In this document: positions 53,001 to 59,000 of the stretch, piece after piece
Layout: each line of letters opens with the position of its first letter
How positions within the stretch are numbered: position 1 is the stretch's first letter
Source: Escherichia coli
GTDB lineage: Bacteria > Pseudomonadota > Gammaproteobacteria > Enterobacterales > Enterobacteriaceae
Assembly (NCBI RefSeq): GCF_030013595.1
Contig: NZ_CP122768.1
Reading direction: 5' to 3' (one strand)
Length of the DNA stretch: 64,000 bases
Made by a program: the position numbers

Positions 53001-56000
53001 GATCTACAGCCTGCTGCACCTCACCGGTTACGATCTGCCGATGGAAGAACTGAAAAACTTCCGTCAGCTGCACTCTAAAACTCCGGGCCACCCGGAAGTG
53101 GGTTACACCGCTGGTGTGGAAACCACTACAGGTCCGCTGGGTCAGGGTATTGCCAACGCAGTCGGTATGGCGATTGCAGAAAAAACGCTGGCGGCGCAGT
53201 TTAACCGTCCGGGCCACGACATCGTCGACCACTACACCTACGCCTTCATGGGCGACGGCTGCATGATGGAAGGCATCTCCCACGAAGTTTGCTCTCTGGC
53301 GGGTACGCTGAAGCTGGGTAAACTGATTGCGTTCTACGATGACAACGGTATCTCTATCGATGGTCACGTTGAAGGCTGGTTCACCGACGACACCGCAATG
53401 CGTTTCGAAGCTTACGGCTGGCACGTTATTCGCGACATCGACGGTCATGACGCAGCATCCATCAAACGCGCAGTAGAAGAAGCGCGCGCAGTGACCGACA
53501 AACCGTCCCTGCTGATGTGCAAAACCATCATCGGTTTCGGTTCCCCGAACAAAGCCGGTACGCACGACTCCCACGGTGCGCCGCTGGGCGACGCTGAAAT
53601 CGCCCTGACCCGCGAACAGCTGGGCTGGAAATATGCACCGTTCGAAATCCCGTCTGAAATCTATGCTCAGTGGGATGCGAAAGAAGCAGGCCAGGCGAAA
53701 GAATCCGCATGGAACGAGAAATTCGCGGCTTACGCGAAAGCTTATCCGCAGGAAGCCGCTGAATTTACCCGCCGTATGAAAGGCGAAATGCCGTCTGACT
53801 TCGACGCCAAAGCGAAAGAATTCATCGCTAAACTGCAGGCTAATCCGGCGAAAATCGCCAGTCGTAAAGCGTCTCAGAATGCGATTGAAGCGTTCGGTCC
53901 GCTGTTGCCGGAATTCCTCGGCGGCTCTGCTGACCTGGCACCGTCTAACCTGACCCTGTGGTCTGGTTCTAAAGCAATCAACGAAGATGCTGCGGGTAAC
54001 TACATCCACTACGGTGTTCGCGAGTTCGGTATGACCGCGATTGCTAACGGTATCTCCCTGCACGGTGGTTTCCTGCCGTACACCTCCACCTTCCTGATGT
54101 TCGTGGAATACGCACGTAACGCCGTACGTATGGCTGCGCTGATGAAACAGCGTCAGGTGTTGGTTTACACCCACGACTCCATCGGTCTGGGCGAAGATGG
54201 CCCGACTCACCAGCCGGTAGAGCAGGTCGCTTCTCTGCGCGTTACCCCGAACATGTCCACATGGCGTCCGTGTGACCAGGTTGAATCTGCAGTGGCATGG
54301 AAATACGGTGTTGAGCGTCAGGACGGCCCGACCGCGCTGATCCTCTCCCGTCAGAACCTGGCGCAGCAGGAACGTACTGAAGAGCAGCTGGCAAACATCG
54401 CGCGCGGTGGTTATGTGCTGAAAGACTGTGCCGGTCAGCCGGAACTGATCTTCATTGCCACCGGTTCTGAAGTTGAACTGGCGGTTGCTGCCTACGAAAA
54501 ACTGACTGCCGAAGGCGTGAAAGCGCGCGTGGTTTCCATGCCGTCTACCGATGCATTCGACAAGCAGGATGCGGCTTACCGTGAATCCGTACTGCCGAAA
54601 GCGGTTACTGCACGCGTTGCGGTGGAAGCTGGCATTGCTGACTACTGGTACAAGTATGTTGGCCTGAACGGTGCTATCGTCGGCATGACCACCTTCGGTG
54701 AGTCTGCCCCGGCAGAACTGCTGTTTGAAGAGTTCGGCTTCACCGTTGACAACGTTGTTGCGAAAGCAAAAGAACTGCTGTAATCGGTAAGTTGCTTTGT
54801 GAGAAGGGCCGCGAAAGCGGCCCTTTTTTACTTGGTGGAGATAAACGGAACTGTGCTGCCGGGGATCATGGTATCGGGTAGCTTACCGTCCCAACGCTCA
54901 GCAGTGGTGAGGGCAACAAGTCCGGGATTATCCCGCAGAGCTTCACCGCGCAGGCGGATAGCTTCTGCTTCAGCCGCACTTTTTAAACGAATAGTTTCAG
55001 CCTCTGCCGCGCCTCTTACGCGAATGGTCTCAGCTTCTGCTTTGGCTGCCGCCAGTTTACTGTCTGCTTCTGCCTGGGCCTGAGTTACTGCTATTTGCGC
55101 CTGGATTTTCTCTGTTTCCAGATTTTGCTTACGTGTGGCAATGGCGACTTCTGCTTTCATTCGGTCTTCAATCGACTTTTCATAAGCGTCAGAAAAGTCA
55201 ATATTTTCAATCTGGACCCCGTCAATCACCACCGGGCCAACAACGGCTTTACGCATTGCATTTTGCAGATCCTGAACCAGTTTTGTACGATCCTGTACCG
55301 CGCTGATGGCTGTATATTGGCCGAAAACGTTCTCCAGTTGGGTTGGCAGCTGGCGGACGATCAGACGCTCTTTTAAAGATTCAATGGTGTTGTAGGTTGT
55401 ATAAACTGCGCCAGCTTCTGAAGGTTTAATGTGGAAGCTGACTGATACTGTCATTTGTGCCGGTTGCTGGTCGCGGCTGTAGGCCTGTAATCCCTGATAA
55501 ACCACAGCCTGATTACGCGTGGAAATTTTCTCCACGCTTTCCATAAAAGGGATCTTAAAACCCAGACCCGGCTCGGCAACTTTTACGATTTTTCCGTAGC
55601 GCAGCAAAATGCCGCGTTCACCTTCATTAACGGTGTAATACGAGAGAAATGGCAGCACAACCACGGCAAGCACGCCAATGACGATAGCAATAGATTTTTG
55701 TGGGCGAAATGAGGTTATTGAAACAGGTGCTTTCATATGAATCTTCCTTGAGTAAAGTGGGGAATATGTCACATGAGGTGAGGAGAAAATAGCCGACAGG
55801 TGAGAATTCAGAATCTATAAAGGGGTATAGCGAAAAAACCTTGCATTAAAAAAGTATGTTTTCGGACATTCAATAAATAAATGGCGATATGCATCACAAA
55901 TACAACAACAATCAAAATGTTGATTTTGTGATAAACATAGCAAATACAAAGTTGACTTTAAAAATATCAATTTCATGTTGTTGTTATTTAAAGTTTTATT

Positions 56001-59000
56001 ATTTTTGCTCATGGGGTTTTTCTTCTCGCGTACCCAATTGCTTTCATTAAACCGCACGAGTATTTTATTTTTACCGCCGGACGGTACCCTAAAAATAAAA
56101 TAAGGATAATTTATGCGGCTTAGTGATTATTTTCCAGAATCATCAATCTCAGTTATACATTCAGCAAAAGATTGGCAGGAAGCTATCGATTTCTCGATGG
56201 CATCATTGCTGGATAAAAACTATATCAGCGAGAATTACATTCAGGCAATTAAAGATTCCACCATTAACAATGGCCCTTATTATATTCTCGCGCCAGGTGT
56301 GGCAATGCCTCATGCGCGACCGGAATGTGGGGCGCTTAAAACCGGGATGTCTTTGACGTTACTTAAACAAGGCGTTTATTTTCCGGGGGATGACGAACCG
56401 ATTAAATTACTCATCGGGCTTTCTGCTGCCGATGCCGATTCGCACATTGGCGCTATTCAGGCGTTAAGTGAATTACTGTGCGAAGAAGAAATACTCGAAC
56501 AACTCTTAACAGCATCATCAGAAAAACAATTAGCGGACATTATCAGCCGCGGATAATTACTCTCTCCTCTACAGGATAATATTATGGAAAACAAGTCTGC
56601 TCGTGCAAAGGTCCAGGCTTTTGGGGGTTTTTTGACGGCAATGGTCATCCCCAATATCGGTGCTTTTATTGCCTGGGGCTTTATAACTGCGTTATTTATT
56701 CCCACCGGTTGGCTGCCGAATGAACATTTCGCCAAAATTGTCGGCCCGATGATTACCTATTTATTGCCCGTGATGATTGGTTCTACCGGTGGTCACCTGG
56801 TCGGCGGTAAACGCGGCGCGGTCATGGGCGGAATTGGTACGATTGGTGTGATCGTCGGCGCTGAAATCCCGATGTTCCTTGGCTCGATGATTATGGGGCC
56901 GCTCGGTGGTCTGGTGATTAAATATATCGACAAGGCGCTGGAAAAACGCATACCTGCCGGTTTTGAGATGGTTATCAATAACTTCTCATTAGGTATCGCG
57001 GGGATGCTCCTTTGTCTGCTGGGTTTTGAAGTGATCGGCCCGGCGGTGTTAATTGCCAATACTTTCGTCAAAGAGTGTATTGAGGCGCTGGTACATGCGG
57101 GTTATCTGCCTTTGCTGTCAGTCATCAATGAACCGGCGAAAGTGCTTTTCCTTAATAATGCGATCGATCAGGGCGTCTATTATCCGCTGGGAATGCAACA
57201 GGCATCAGTTAACGGCAAATCCATCTTCTTTATGGTGGCCTCTAATCCAGGTCCTGGCCTGGGGCTGCTGCTGGCGTTTACCTTGTTTGGTAAAGGGATG
57301 AGTAAACGTTCTGCGCCTGGCGCGATGATTATTCACTTCATCGGTGGGATCCACGAACTGTATTTCCCATATGTGCTGATGAAGCCACTGACCATTATTG
57401 CCATGATTGCGGGCGGTATGTCTGGCACCTGGATGTTTAATTTGCTGGACGGTGGTTTGGTTGCAGGCCCAAGCCCTGGCTCTATTTTTGCTTACCTGGC
57501 GCTGACGCCGAAAGGCTCGTTCCTGGCGACACTTGCCGGTGTTACGGTAGGTACCCTGGTGTCCTTTGCTATCACTTCGCTGATACTGAAGATGGAAAAA
57601 ACGATGGAAACGGAGAGCGAAGATGAGTTTGCTCAGTCAGCCAATGCGGTTAAGGCGATGAAACAAGAGGGTGCATTCTCGTTAAGCCGGGTTAAGCGTA
57701 TCGCCTTTGTTTGCGATGCGGGGATGGGCTCCAGTGCGATGGGCGCAACCACCTTCCGTAAGCGACTGGAAAAAGCGGGGCTGGCAATTGAAGTAAAACA
57801 TTACGCGATAGAAAACGTGCCTGCGGATGCGGATATTGTCGTCACTCACGCAAGTCTTGAAGGTCGTGTAAAACGCGTAACCGATAAACCGCTGATACTG
57901 ATTAATAACTATATTGGCGATCCGAAACTCGACACTTTATTTAATCAATTAACCGCCGAACATAAAAACTGATTGCCGAGGTAAAAATGAAAACTAAAGT
58001 TGCTGCTATTTATGGCAAGCGGGATGTCCGTCTGCGCGAATTTGAACTGCCAGAAATTACCGATAATGAACTGTTAGTGAGTGTAATTTCTGACAGCGTC
58101 TGTTTATCGACCTGGAAAGCGGCGTTACTCGGTAGTGAACATAAACGCGTACCCGACGATTTAGAAAATCATCCGGTCATTACCGGGCATGAATGTGCCG
58201 GGGTTATTGTTGAAGTGGGTAAAAATCTCACCGACAAATATAAAAAAGGCCAGCGTTTTGTATTGCAACCGGCGATGGGGTTACCAAGCGGATATTCAGC
58301 GGGCTACAGCTACGAATATTTTGGCGGTAACGCCACCTATATGATTATTCCCGAGATCGCCATTAACCTGGGCTGCGTATTACCGTACCACGGCTCTTAT
58401 TTTGCTGCGGCGTCGCTGGCAGAGCCTATGTGCTGCATTATTGGCGCTTATCATGCCAATTATCACACCACGCAATATGTTTATGAGCATCGCATGGGCG
58501 TTAAACCTGGCGGCAATATTGCGCTGCTGGCATGTGCTGGTCCGATGGGCATTGGCGCTATCGATTATGCTATTAACGGCGGCATACAACCGTCGCGGGT
58601 GGTGGTGGTCGATATCGACGACAAACGCCTGGCCCAGGTACAAAAGCTGCTGCCGGTGGAACTGGCGGCCAGTAAAGGCATTGAGCTGGTGTATATGAAT
58701 ACCAAAGGGATGAGCGATCCGGTCCAGACGCTGCGGGCGCTGACGGATGATGCCGGATTTGATGACGTATTTGTCTATGCAGCGGTGCCTTCAGTCGTCG
58801 AGATGGCTGATGAATTACTGGCGGAAGATGGCTGCCTGAACTTCTTTGCCGGGCCGACGGATAAAAACTTCAAAGTGCCGTTTAATTTCTACAACGTCCA
58901 TTACAACAGCACGCATGTCGTCGGTACGTCCGGCGGTTCAACGGACGACATGAAAGAGGCGATTGCGCTTAGCGCCACAGGGCAGTTGCAGCCGTCGTTT

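What the first reader, a model, noticed from the sequence alone, without database searches (positions are those of the whole stretch)
54828..56112. SPFH/band-7 gene with AEAE-IR tandem repeats between tktA and cmtB
A convergent gene encoding a membrane-anchored SPFH-domain protein lies between tktA and cmtB, which I recall as adjacent in K-12. Its C-terminal part contains three near-identical AEAETIR(V/L)(R/K)G-type repeats, also visible as DNA tandem repeats (~54940-55040), which could vary in copy number. A very AT-rich ~340-bp region (55773-56112) separates it from cmtB.
Basis: partly seen in the sequence, partly recalled or inferred. Interest (0 to 1): 0.4.

Follow-up and report, generated by a model that had tools for sequence, protein, structure and literature searches.

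The report
Fifth E. coli SPFH (prohibitin-type) gene
This is an intact, already catalogued but unstudied membrane-scaffold gene of the HflC/prohibitin type; about one third of E. coli strains keep it beside the transketolase gene and K-12 has lost it, so the finding is real but fairly ordinary.

Summary
A 302-aa ORF (54828-55736, minus strand) lies between tkt and cmtB, convergent with tkt. It encodes an N-terminally anchored SPFH/Band_7 protein (Pfam E 3.5e-30). Three 11-aa units, AEAETIRVRGA/AEAETIRLKSA/AEAEAIRLRGE, lie at 54942-55040. A spacer of 31-32% GC separates the gene from cmtB. RefSeq already calls it "prohibitin family protein".

The gene sits at this site in about 1,820 of 5,426 complete E. 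coli genomes. It is absent from K-12 MG1655. It is not an insertion: E. albertii has it at the same site, and Kluyvera and Klebsiella have it beside epd (Kluyvera also shows tkt on the other side). dN/dS is 0.02-0.05. K-12-type strains therefore lost it.

Its closest relatives are HflC, then HflK and prohibitins, not YqiK/flotillin. It has no NfeD partner and reaches none of the HflC/HflK thresholds.

The coding repeat is diverged at DNA level (58-76% identity). Tandem Repeats Finder does not detect it. It is fixed at three units in about 1,829 E. coli genomes. Other genera have two units, so Escherichia gained one.

The most likely function is inferred, not shown: a periplasm-facing homo-oligomeric cage that fences inner-membrane clients, as HflK/C does. 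Interest is low to moderate.

The parts
54828..55736 (-). CDS of the 302-aa SPFH 'prohibitin family protein' (stop codon included). The ORF list extends it to a GTG at 55772, but the ATG at 55736 is the supported start.
   Evidence: Shine-Dalgarno AAGGAAG at 55743-55749 read
55641..55703 (-). N-terminal membrane anchor (residues 12-32). It is preceded by K2, R11 and K14 and contains no Cys, so it is predicted to be an uncleaved N-in signal anchor.
   Evidence: AlphaFold helix 12-32; charge bias across homologues
55104..55631 (-). SPFH/Band_7 domain (residues 36-211)
   Evidence: Pfam PF01145, E 3.5e-30, 105.8 bits against a cutoff of 23.6; Foldseek matches to HflC, PHB and erlin
54930..55190 (-). 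Single long alpha-helix (residues 183-269). It is the equivalent of the coiled-coil wall helix of SPFH cages.
   Evidence: AlphaFold model, pLDDT 80-95 over most of the helix
54942..55040 (-). Three tandem 11-aa units AEAETIRVRGA / AEAETIRLKSA / AEAEAIRLRGE (residues 233-265). A degenerate fourth unit, AEADSKLAAAK, lies just upstream at 55041-55073.
   Evidence: other genera have one unit fewer
54831..55004 (-). C-terminal module (residues 245-302, ...AERWDGKLPDTMIPGSTVPFISTK). It also occurs in phage and plasmid SPFH/'lipoprotein' genes. Confidence is low in the monomer model, and it is probably structured only in the oligomer.
   Evidence: phrog_38808 E 1.7e-19; tblastn hits to residues 238-302; pLDDT below 50 for residues 276-302
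54804..54829 (.). Single G+C-rich hairpin (GGGCCGC-GAAA-GCGGCCC, 54806-54823) followed by a T-run (54824-54829), shared by the two convergent genes. The T-run supplies the TAA stop codon (54830-54828) of the SPFH gene on the other strand.
   Evidence: sequence; RNA fold -25.3 kcal/mol, z -3.9. The consensus terminator scan did not list it.
55737..56112 (.). AT-rich divergent spacer (GC 0.32) between the SPFH gene and cmtB. It should hold both promoters. Only the 78 bp next to cmtB (56035-56112) are shared with K-12.
   Evidence: No sigma-70 consensus match was found. The ORFs inside it are not conserved.
54784..56034 (.). The 1,251-bp segment that distinguishes carrier strains from K-12-type strains, which have an unrelated or very diverged 235 bp here.

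Best explanation
The ORF is an intact, vertically inherited enterobacterial gene for a fifth E. coli SPFH protein. It belongs to the HflC/HflK/prohibitin branch of that superfamily.

**Shown here.**
- It has a Band_7 domain, an N-terminal hydrophobic helix, an 87-residue helix and a conserved C-terminal tail.
- It is monocistronic, with no NfeD or second SPFH gene beside it.
- It is under strong purifying selection.
- It has the same position in E. albertii and lies beside epd in Kluyvera and Klebsiella (with tkt on the other side in Kluyvera).
- It is absent from K-12-type strains, which keep no ORF remnant.

**Inferred.**
- The N-terminus stays in the cytoplasm and the SPFH domain faces the periplasm, as in HflK/C and as mitochondrial prohibitins face the intermembrane space.
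- Many copies assemble side by side into a closed ring or cage on the outer face of the inner membrane.
  - The SPFH domains would lie on the membrane.
  - The long helices would form the wall.
  - The C-terminal tails would close the cap.
- The cage would enclose a patch of membrane and its client proteins and limit their access to substrates or partners. The FtsH protease is the obvious candidate client, by analogy only.

**The repeat.** The AEAE-IR units are part of the wall helix. Escherichia carries one extra 11-residue unit. That is about three helical turns, roughly 16 A by standard helix geometry. It would lengthen the wall nearly in phase. It is not a variable or contingency repeat.
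For: **Family.**
- Pfam Band_7, E 3.5e-30.
- PDB sequence hits: HflC 4.5e-14, HflK 4e-11, QmcA 5e-7, PHB1 2.7e-5, PHB2 1.6e-4.
- Family profile against the PDB: HflC 7e-20, HflK 5e-12, prohibitin 1.6e-11, PHB2 4.6e-11, QmcA 6e-7.

**Fold.**
- AlphaFold mean pLDDT 83.8: TM helix 12-32, SPFH domain 33-181, helix 183-269.
- The best Foldseek matches are subunits of solved cages: HflC 3.6e-17, PHB1/2 about 1e-15, erlin1/2, HflK, stomatin, QmcA.

**Topology.**
- K/R residues precede the anchor in 93 of 110 homologues. Net charge is +1.1 before the anchor and about 0 after it.
- 18 of 110 homologues have a Cys at the end of the hydrophobic segment. Twelve of these fit a relaxed lipobox, which implies export.
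- The matching phage family, phrog_200, is labelled 'lipoprotein'.
- PMC2636767 predicts a periplasmic orientation for bacterial prohibitins.

**Ancestry.**
- E. albertii: cmtB | SPFH | tkt.
- Kluyvera: epd-pgk-fbaA | SPFH | tkt.
- Klebsiella: epd-pgk-fbaA | SPFH, where the contig ends just after the gene.
- Gene GC is 0.49, equal to the window.

**Function retained.** dN/dS is 0.02-0.05. Length is constant in E. coli.

**No partner gene.**
Against: - Nothing here shows oligomerisation, orientation or any client. All three rest on analogy with HflK/C, prohibitin and QmcA.
- The monomer model is unreliable for residues 276-302, the part supposed to close the cage.
- The long helix shows no significant 3.5- or 3.67-residue hydrophobic periodicity. 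A classical coiled-coil reading of the repeat is therefore unsupported.
- HflK/C and PHB1/2 are hetero-oligomers of two paralogues, whereas this gene stands alone.
- All E. coli already have HflK/C. That is my knowledge; hflKC is not in this window. The added role of a second periplasmic cage is unclear.
- Two thirds of strains do without the gene, so any role is dispensable.
Confidence: 0.6

Rival explanations
1. It is a cytoplasm-facing stomatin/QmcA- or flotillin/YqiK-like scaffold (N-terminus out, SPFH domain inside), as the first reader's YqiK suggestion implies.
For: - QmcA is a clear structural match (Foldseek E 4.6e-12, TMq 0.55).
- A weak FloT hit covers the EA-rich helix (NF058507, E 0.002).
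Against: - HflC, HflK and prohibitins score far better than QmcA in sequence and profile searches. No flotillin sequence reaches E 0.001 there.
- The FloT score is 17 bits against a cutoff of 700.
- No NfeD gene is adjacent, which is the hallmark of the stomatin and flotillin operons (PMC2636767).
- Positive charges precede the anchor, and some homologues have lipobox-like signals.
Confidence: 0.1
2. It is a horizontally acquired gene, derived from a phage or plasmid, that inserted between tktA and cmtB in some lineages.
For: - The gene is strain-variable, present in about 34% of genomes.
- It is flanked by a 31% GC spacer.
- Full-length homologues of about 50% identity occur in jumbo phages.
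- A 64%-identical homologue lies in a plasmid type IV secretion operon.
- PHROG matches.
Against: - The position is the same in E. albertii, and Kluyvera and Klebsiella have the gene beside epd (Kluyvera also beside tkt), although they lack the cmt genes.
- Gene GC equals the genome average.
- No integrase, direct repeats or tRNA flank the segment.
- dS to E. albertii is 0.69, as expected for an orthologue rather than a recent import.
- The phage copies are only about 50% identical.
Confidence: 0.08
3. It is an HflC paralogue that joins or replaces subunits in the HflK/C-FtsH complex rather than forming its own homo-oligomer.
For: - HflC is the best hit by sequence, profile and fold.
- Similarity extends through the anchor and the V(K/N)EGERGI.LR.GK motif (alignment).
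Against: - It scores well below both HflC equivalog cutoffs: 60.6 against 134.4, and 53.8 against 427.
- It is about 25% identical to HflC.
- It is not linked to hflK/hflC.
- The family also occurs alone in phages and plasmids.
Confidence: 0.15
4. The AEAE-IR repeat is a slippage-prone contingency repeat that changes copy number between strains and modulates the protein.
For: - It is in-frame with a 33-bp period.
- Genera differ by one unit, and one E. albertii protein lacks exactly 22 aa.
Against: - The DNA units are only 58-76% identical, and Tandem Repeats Finder finds no array.
- All 59 sampled full-length E. coli copies span 909-912 bp.
- No genome among 1,829 matches a two-unit allele without a 33-bp gap.
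Confidence: 0.03

Closest known systems
HflC / HflK (E. coli FtsH modulators; SPFH3 of Hinderhofer et al. 2009; cage structures 7vhp, 7wi3, 9cz2)
   Same: - Best sequence, profile and fold matches.
- N-terminal single anchor with a cytoplasmic N-terminus.
- Same domain order: SPFH domain, then a long helix, then a C-terminal tail.
- No NfeD partner.
- Predicted periplasmic orientation.
   Different: - Only about 25% identical.
- Fails all four NCBIfam HflC/HflK equivalog cutoffs.
- A single gene rather than an hflK-hflC pair.
- Lacks HflK's long N-terminal extension.
- Strain-variable, whereas hflKC is core (my knowledge).
- No evidence of FtsH binding.
Prohibitins: mitochondrial PHB1/PHB2 and bacterial 'p-prohibitins' (SPFH4, PMC2636767)
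   Same: - RefSeq names it 'prohibitin family protein'.
- Profile E 1.6e-11 to 4.6e-11 to prohibitin chains, with alignments spanning nearly the whole protein (positions 20-263).
- Foldseek E 2.4e-15 to PHB1.
- Similar size, about 270-300 aa.
- No NfeD partner.
- Bacterial members are uncharacterised.
   Different: - PHB1/2 form a hetero-oligomer.
- The 2009 survey found that SPFH4 rarely coexists with HflK/C in one genome. Here it would coexist.
- I could not test membership of SPFH4 as those authors defined it, because their HMM is not available.
QmcA-YbbJ (stomatin-type) and YqiK-YqiJ (flotillin-type) of E. coli K-12
   Same: - SPFH fold and cage-forming architecture (QmcA 8z5g, Foldseek E 4.6e-12).
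- An EA-rich helix, as in flotillins.
   Different: - Weaker similarity.
- Those proteins face the cytoplasm and are encoded with an NfeD partner (PMC10434171, PMC2636767). This gene has no such neighbour and has opposite charge signals.
Phage and plasmid SPFH proteins (phrog_200; jumbo phages GAP32, fHe-Yen9-04, Serratia BF; IncFII plasmid type IV secretion operon)
   Same: - 50-53% identity over residues 30-300, and 64% for the Salmonella plasmid copy.
- The same C-terminal module (phrog_38808).
   Different: - Those copies sit in mobile elements. The window's gene is chromosomal, sits by tkt or epd in four genera, and has genome-typical GC.
- The function of the phage copies is also unknown.

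Membership tests
SPFH / Band 7 superfamily (PF01145) | Band_7 domain above Pfam's gathering score | tested here: met
   105.8 bits against a cutoff of 23.6, E 3.5e-30, residues 36-211, full-length profile match 2-176/176
SPFH / Band 7 superfamily (PF01145) | N-terminal membrane anchor followed by the SPFH domain and a long C-terminal helix | tested here: met
   AlphaFold model: helix 12-32, strands and helices 33-181, helix 183-269; top fold matches are full-length SPFH cage subunits
SPFH / Band 7 superfamily (PF01145) | Assembly into a large ring- or cage-shaped oligomer | not testable with these tools
   Only a monomer could be modelled. This needs native PAGE, cryo-EM or multimer modelling.
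HflC (NCBIfam TIGR01932 / NF008259 equivalogs) | Score above the curated equivalog cutoff | tested here: not met
   60.6 against 134.4 bits, and 53.8 against 427 bits
HflK (NCBIfam TIGR01933 / NF008181 equivalogs) | Score above the curated equivalog cutoff | tested here: not met
   37.7 against 159.4 bits, and 36.1 against 660 bits
HflK/C system | Two adjacent paralogous genes (hflK-hflC) encoding a hetero-oligomer | tested here: not met
   The gene is single and monocistronic between tkt and cmtB. It is also single in the Kluyvera, Klebsiella, E. albertii, Dokdonella and Mixta contexts.
Prohibitin family (RefSeq name; SPFH4 'p-prohibitins') | Significant full-length similarity to prohibitins | tested here: met
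   Profile E 1.6e-11 (9urz_B, positions 20-263) and 4.6e-11 (PHB2); Foldseek E 2.4e-15 to PHB1. HflC nevertheless scores better.
Prohibitin family (RefSeq name; SPFH4 'p-prohibitins') | Assignment by the family's own model (CDD/PGAP rule or the SPFH4 HMM of Hinderhofer et al.) | not testable with these tools
   No such model is in the libraries offered. The name is taken from RefSeq annotation.
Prohibitin family (RefSeq name; SPFH4 'p-prohibitins') | SPFH domain on the periplasmic / intermembrane-space side | tested here: inconclusive
   Charge bias and lipobox-like Cys in 18 of 110 homologues point to export, but this is a prediction only.
Flotillin / YqiK type (SPFH2) | Score above the FloT equivalog cutoff; NfeD gene in the operon | tested here: not met
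   17.3 against 700 bits, covering the EA-rich helix only; no NfeD neighbour
Stomatin / QmcA type (SPFH1) | NfeD partner gene adjacent; best similarity to stomatins | tested here: not met
   No adjacent NfeD. QmcA (6e-7) and stomatin (1.2e-6) rank below HflC, HflK and PHB.
Known anti-phage defence systems (PADLOC-DB) | Match to any defence-system protein model | tested here: not met
   0 families at E <= 0.01
Copy-variable (contingency) tandem repeat | Near-identical DNA units and differing unit number among strains | tested here: not met
   Units are 58-76% identical. There is no Tandem Repeats Finder array. Length is constant in the sampled genomes, and no two-unit allele occurs in 1,829 genomes.

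The most novel reading that the evidence does not exclude
Carrier E. coli lineages run a second, homo-oligomeric prohibitin-type cage on the periplasmic face of the inner membrane alongside HflK/C, with its own clients. These lineages include ST131, Nissle 1917 and IAI39. The same protein type is carried by jumbo phages and by a conjugative-plasmid type IV secretion operon. Its role could therefore be to protect or partition the inner membrane against envelope assaults such as phage DNA entry, conjugation or lysis. That would make it a lineage-specific envelope-defence or fitness factor rather than a housekeeping scaffold.
Probability: 0.1. Interest if true: 0.6.

Novelty: already known. Interest (0 to 1): 0.25.

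Why it matters
Work on E. coli membrane microdomains treats the species as having four SPFH proteins: HflK, HflC, QmcA and YqiK. That is stated for K-12 in PMC10434171 and repeated in PMC12839154, a paper on the adherent-invasive strain LF82.

About a third of complete genomes encode a fifth. These include clinically important lineages such as ST131 and the probiotic Nissle 1917. The fifth protein is an HflC/prohibitin-like one under strong purifying selection. The searches I made of the held literature turned up no study of it.

Quadruple-SPFH knockouts in K-12 therefore do not represent those strains. Bacterial prohibitin-type proteins were reported as unstudied in 2009 (PMC2636767), and my searches of the held literature found no later study. 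This gene offers a tractable member in a model species, with natural presence and absence variants.

Beyond that the finding is ordinary. The gene is annotated, the fold is well known, and the repeat is a fixed structural feature.

Tried and rejected
- **DNA tandem repeat.** Tandem Repeats Finder at minimum score 30 found no 33-bp array. The repeat is a protein-level feature.
- **Copy-number variation in E. coli.** I looked for it twice and found none.
- **Hendecad or heptad coiled coil.** Fourier power of hydrophobicity at periods 3.5, 3.6 and 3.67 over residues 183-269 is no better than in shuffles. I do not call the repeat a coiled-coil hendecad. Only the 11-residue sequence period is real.
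- **Defence-system membership.** PADLOC gave no hit.
- **Remnant of the gene in K-12.** tblastn of the protein against the K-12 spacer found nothing.
  - Beyond the 78 bp next to cmtB, the only collinear similarity is a 45-bp stretch at 73% identity (E 0.001).
  - A local-alignment score of 23 compares with 11.3 +/- 1.8 in mononucleotide shuffles.
  - The loss cannot be reconstructed as a simple deletion, because the tkt terminator hairpin also differs.
- **Promoters.** The sigma-70 consensus scan found none in 54700-56200. The promoter of the gene is unassigned.
- **Small ORFs in the AT-rich spacer** (80, 53 and 42 aa). None is conserved in SF-468 or E. albertii, so I rejected them.
- **Rfam on the region.** There was only a sub-threshold hit, AaHKsRNA20 at 29.1 against 43 bits, on the terminator hairpin. 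I rejected it.
- **Literature.** I found no paper on this gene with the terms tried.
- **Not run, to save shared resources.** I skipped the all-representatives protein search and the genome contigs and metagenome scans. Family breadth was already clear from 3,993 hits.

Full report
**What is there.** The window is E. coli. The 1,701 bp around the finding are 100% identical to strain HCP5S3_I2.

Between tkt (stop at 54783) and cmtB (start at 56113) lies one minus-strand ORF. The ORF list starts it at a GTG (55772). Three things put the start at the ATG at 55736, giving 302 aa and a stop at 54830-54828:
- the RefSeq CDS of the identical strain;
- the N-termini of all close homologues;
- an AAGGAAG Shine-Dalgarno sequence 6 nt upstream.

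The gene is convergent with tkt. The 44 bp between the two stop codons hold a single G+C-rich hairpin plus a T-run (54804-54829; -25.3 kcal/mol, z -3.9). The T-run doubles as the TAA stop of the minus-strand gene.

Upstream, a 376-bp spacer of 32% GC separates the gene from the divergent cmtB. The gene and the window are both 49% GC.

**The observation.**
- Pfam Band_7 matches at E 3.5e-30 over the full profile.
- The AlphaFold model (73-sequence alignment, mean pLDDT 83.8) shows:
  - a helix at residues 12-32, the anchor;
  - an alpha/beta SPFH domain at 33-181;
  - one 87-residue helix at 183-269;
  - a short helix at 271-280;
  - a low-confidence tail.
- The three units AEAETIRVRGA, AEAETIRLKSA and AEAEAIRLRGE occupy residues 233-265 (55040-54942).
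- A degenerate fourth unit, AEADSKLAAAK, precedes them.
- Self-identity of the helix peaks at offsets 11 and 22.

At DNA level the units are only 25/33, 20/33 and 19/33 identical. Tandem Repeats Finder sees no 33-bp array. The 'DNA tandem repeat' is therefore an old, diverged duplication.

**Distribution and polarity.** Megablast against 5,426 complete E. coli genomes finds the tkt-cmtB junction in 5,425. Only 1,818 cover the gene-bearing query at 80% or more. The gene alone matches in 1,830.

Apart from one hit on a record typed as a plasmid, every place is chromosomal, and every row shown is annotated 'prohibitin family protein'. Carriers listed include ST131, Nissle 1917, ATCC 11775, IAI39 and clone D i14. 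Several O157 genomes listed show the K-12-type junction without the gene.

K-12 MG1655 has cmtB and tktA adjacent, with a 313-bp spacer. Compared with K-12-type strains, the window's 54784-56034 (1,251 bp) replaces 235 bp.
- Only the 78 bp next to cmtB are shared.
- There is no ORF remnant.
- A short stretch of the AT-rich spacer is weakly similar.
- Even the tkt terminator hairpin differs.

The gene is nevertheless ancestral.
- E. albertii has cmtB | SPFH | tkt.
- Kluyvera has epd-pgk-fbaA | SPFH | tkt without the cmt genes.
- Klebsiella spallanzanii has epd-pgk-fbaA | SPFH, where the contig ends just after the gene.

GC content is genome-typical. dN/dS is 0.02-0.05 within E. coli and 0.03 to E. 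albertii, where dS is 0.69. The simplest reading is an old enterobacterial gene kept by some Escherichia lineages and lost by K-12-type ones.

**The repeat is fixed, not variable.** All 59 evenly sampled full-length hits span 909-912 bp in one piece.

A synthetic allele lacking one unit was matched by the best-ranked of 1,829 genomes only as two pieces spanning 281 bp, which is 248 + 33. The top identity was 95.7%, and no hit reached 99%.

Across genera the number does differ. Kluyvera, Klebsiella, Kosakonia, Mixta, Erwinia, Salmonella, Testudinibacter, Pseudomonas and Dokdonella homologues have one unit fewer. E. coli and the E. albertii type strain have the extra one. One E. albertii protein has an in-frame 22-aa deletion, and a metagenomic variant lacks 11 aa.

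The extra 11 residues lie in the long helix, where pLDDT is 80-90. They would lengthen it by about three turns, which is standard helix geometry. I could not support a true coiled-coil periodicity.

**Which SPFH family.** NCBIfam gives only sub-threshold HflC and HflK hits, plus a trivial FloT hit on the EA-rich helix. Against solved structures the results are as follows.

| Comparison | Single sequence | 73-sequence profile | Foldseek on the model |
|---|---|---|---|
| HflC | 4.5e-14 | 7e-20 | 3.6e-17 |
| HflK | 4e-11 | 5e-12 | 3.1e-14 |
| Prohibitin chains | PHB1 2.7e-5, PHB2 1.6e-4 | 1.6e-11 (9urz_B), PHB2 4.6e-11 | PHB1/2 about 1e-15 |
| QmcA | 5e-7 | 6e-7 | 4.6e-12 |
| Stomatin | no hit at E 0.001 or better | 1.2e-6 | 4.3e-13 |
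| Flotillin | no hit at E 0.001 or better | no hit at E 0.001 or better | 1.7e-9 |

Erlin1/2 also scores about 1e-15 in Foldseek.

It is not an HflC or HflK orthologue.

No NfeD gene or second SPFH gene is adjacent here or in five other genomic contexts. Hinderhofer et al. report the same for their SPFH3 and SPFH4 groups. Those authors also note three things about bacterial prohibitins:
- they were uncharacterised;
- they are predicted to face the periplasm;
- they rarely coexist with HflK/C.

**Orientation (inferred).** K2, R11 and K14 precede the hydrophobic segment. Across 110 full-length homologues:
- net charge is +1.1 before the anchor and about 0 after it;
- 93 have at least one K/R before it;
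- 18 have a Cys at the end of the hydrophobic stretch, just before the conserved Y/F-T-V/I motif. Twelve of these fit a relaxed lipobox and one fits a strict one.

The matching phage family, phrog_200, is labelled 'lipoprotein'. These signals all point to an exported SPFH domain. In E. coli it would be held by an uncleaved signal anchor, as in HflC.

**Most likely mechanism.** By analogy with the solved HflK/C, prohibitin, erlin, stomatin and QmcA cages, which are the top fold matches, many copies probably pack side by side.
- The SPFH domains would sit on the periplasmic leaflet.
- The 87-residue helices would form a wall.
- The conserved C-terminal tails would close a cap.

The C-terminal tail is disordered in the monomer model. 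It would enclose a membrane patch and its client proteins.

FtsH is the candidate client by analogy only. Oligomerisation, orientation and client are all inferred; nothing here shows them.

**Mobile relatives.**
- Jumbo phages of Cronobacter, Yersinia, Erwinia, Serratia and Xanthomonas encode homologues 48-53% identical over about 90% of the protein.
- A 64%-identical Salmonella homologue sits in an IncFII plasmid type IV secretion operon.
- The C-terminal 60 residues recur at about 45-50% identity in SPFH, 'lipoprotein' and 'serine protease' genes. Carriers include P1-like phage-plasmids, Stx2a phages and Pseudomonas phages such as phiKMVC5-4.
- PADLOC has no model for the protein.

These facts keep open a more interesting envelope-protection role but do not demonstrate it.

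**Verdict.** The finding is real and correctly read in its essentials. The gene is already catalogued, with a RefSeq WP accession in about 1,800 complete genomes. Its fold is well known, and the repeat is a fixed structural element.

Two points are mildly noteworthy.
- Papers on E. coli SPFH proteins count four, while a third of strains have a fifth, prohibitin-type gene that my literature searches found no study of.
- Escherichia orthologues carry one extra 11-residue unit in the wall helix.

Noticed in passing
window 54784-54827; L002 705-1074; L003 and L004 about 684-900: The DNA repeat that really varies in copy number at this locus lies between the tkt stop and the SPFH stop. It is a 174-bp unit made of the terminator hairpin plus REP/BIME-type elements. 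The Rfam family ES036/CssrF scores 49.3 bits against a gathering score of 37.6, and naRNA4 is sub-threshold. The unit is absent from the window, present about once in NR3838 and SF-468, and present 2.1 times at 98% match in MS 198-1.
   Followed up: partly
window 54804-54830: One hairpin serves both convergent genes. The T-run of the tkt terminator forms the TAA stop codon of the SPFH gene on the opposite strand. The consensus terminator scan missed this hairpin.
   Followed up: partly
window 54831-55004 (residues 245-302): The C-terminal module of about 60 aa (AERWDGKLP..M.PG...PF) matches phrog_38808. On its own it recurs at about 45-50% identity in SPFH, 'lipoprotein' and 'serine protease' genes. 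These are carried by P1-like phage-plasmids (e.g. RCS47, with plasmid hits in about 350 E. coli plasmid records), Stx2a-converting phages and Pseudomonas phages such as phiKMVC5-4.
   Followed up: partly
phage records JN882285 (GAP32) 13592-14368, LT960551, KY630187 and others: Jumbo myoviruses of Enterobacterales and Xanthomonas carry full-length homologues of 48-53% identity. I found no function assigned to them.
   Followed up: no
L015 5001-5885 (Salmonella enterica IncFII plasmid contig): A 64%-identical homologue lies inside a conjugative type IV secretion gene block (NusG-like ... SPFH ... SLT, TrbC, VirB3, VirB4). This suggests a link between this SPFH type and envelope-spanning machines.
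   Followed up: no
window 55857-55938 against the K-12 tktA-cmtB spacer (L005 685-997 / L017 5332-5644): Part of the AT-rich spacer has weak but above-shuffle similarity to the K-12 spacer. The local-alignment score is 23 against 11.3 +/- 1.8 in shuffles, and blastn finds 45 bp at 73% identity (E 0.001). The shared stretch includes a GATCACAAATA / GCATCACAAATA motif. In K-12, cmtB is reported as CRP-activated (PMC3105977). I did not test for a CRP site.
   Followed up: partly
window 55815-56057 (-), 55889-56050 (+), and a 42-aa + strand ORF ending near 56105: These small ORFs inside the AT-rich spacer are kept in some E. coli alleles. They are absent from SF-468 and E. albertii, so they are probably spurious.
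   Followed up: yes
L011-L013 3215-4717 (Dokdonella): In Dokdonella the orthologue (56% identity) lies two genes from a 500-aa rhomboid-family protease gene on the opposite strand. This was seen in one genus only and is not a conserved association.
   Followed up: no
PLSDB record NZ_CP134663.1 (4.9 Mb): The only plasmid-collection hit at 99% or better is a 4.9-Mb E. coli record, which looks like a chromosome filed as a plasmid.
   Followed up: no
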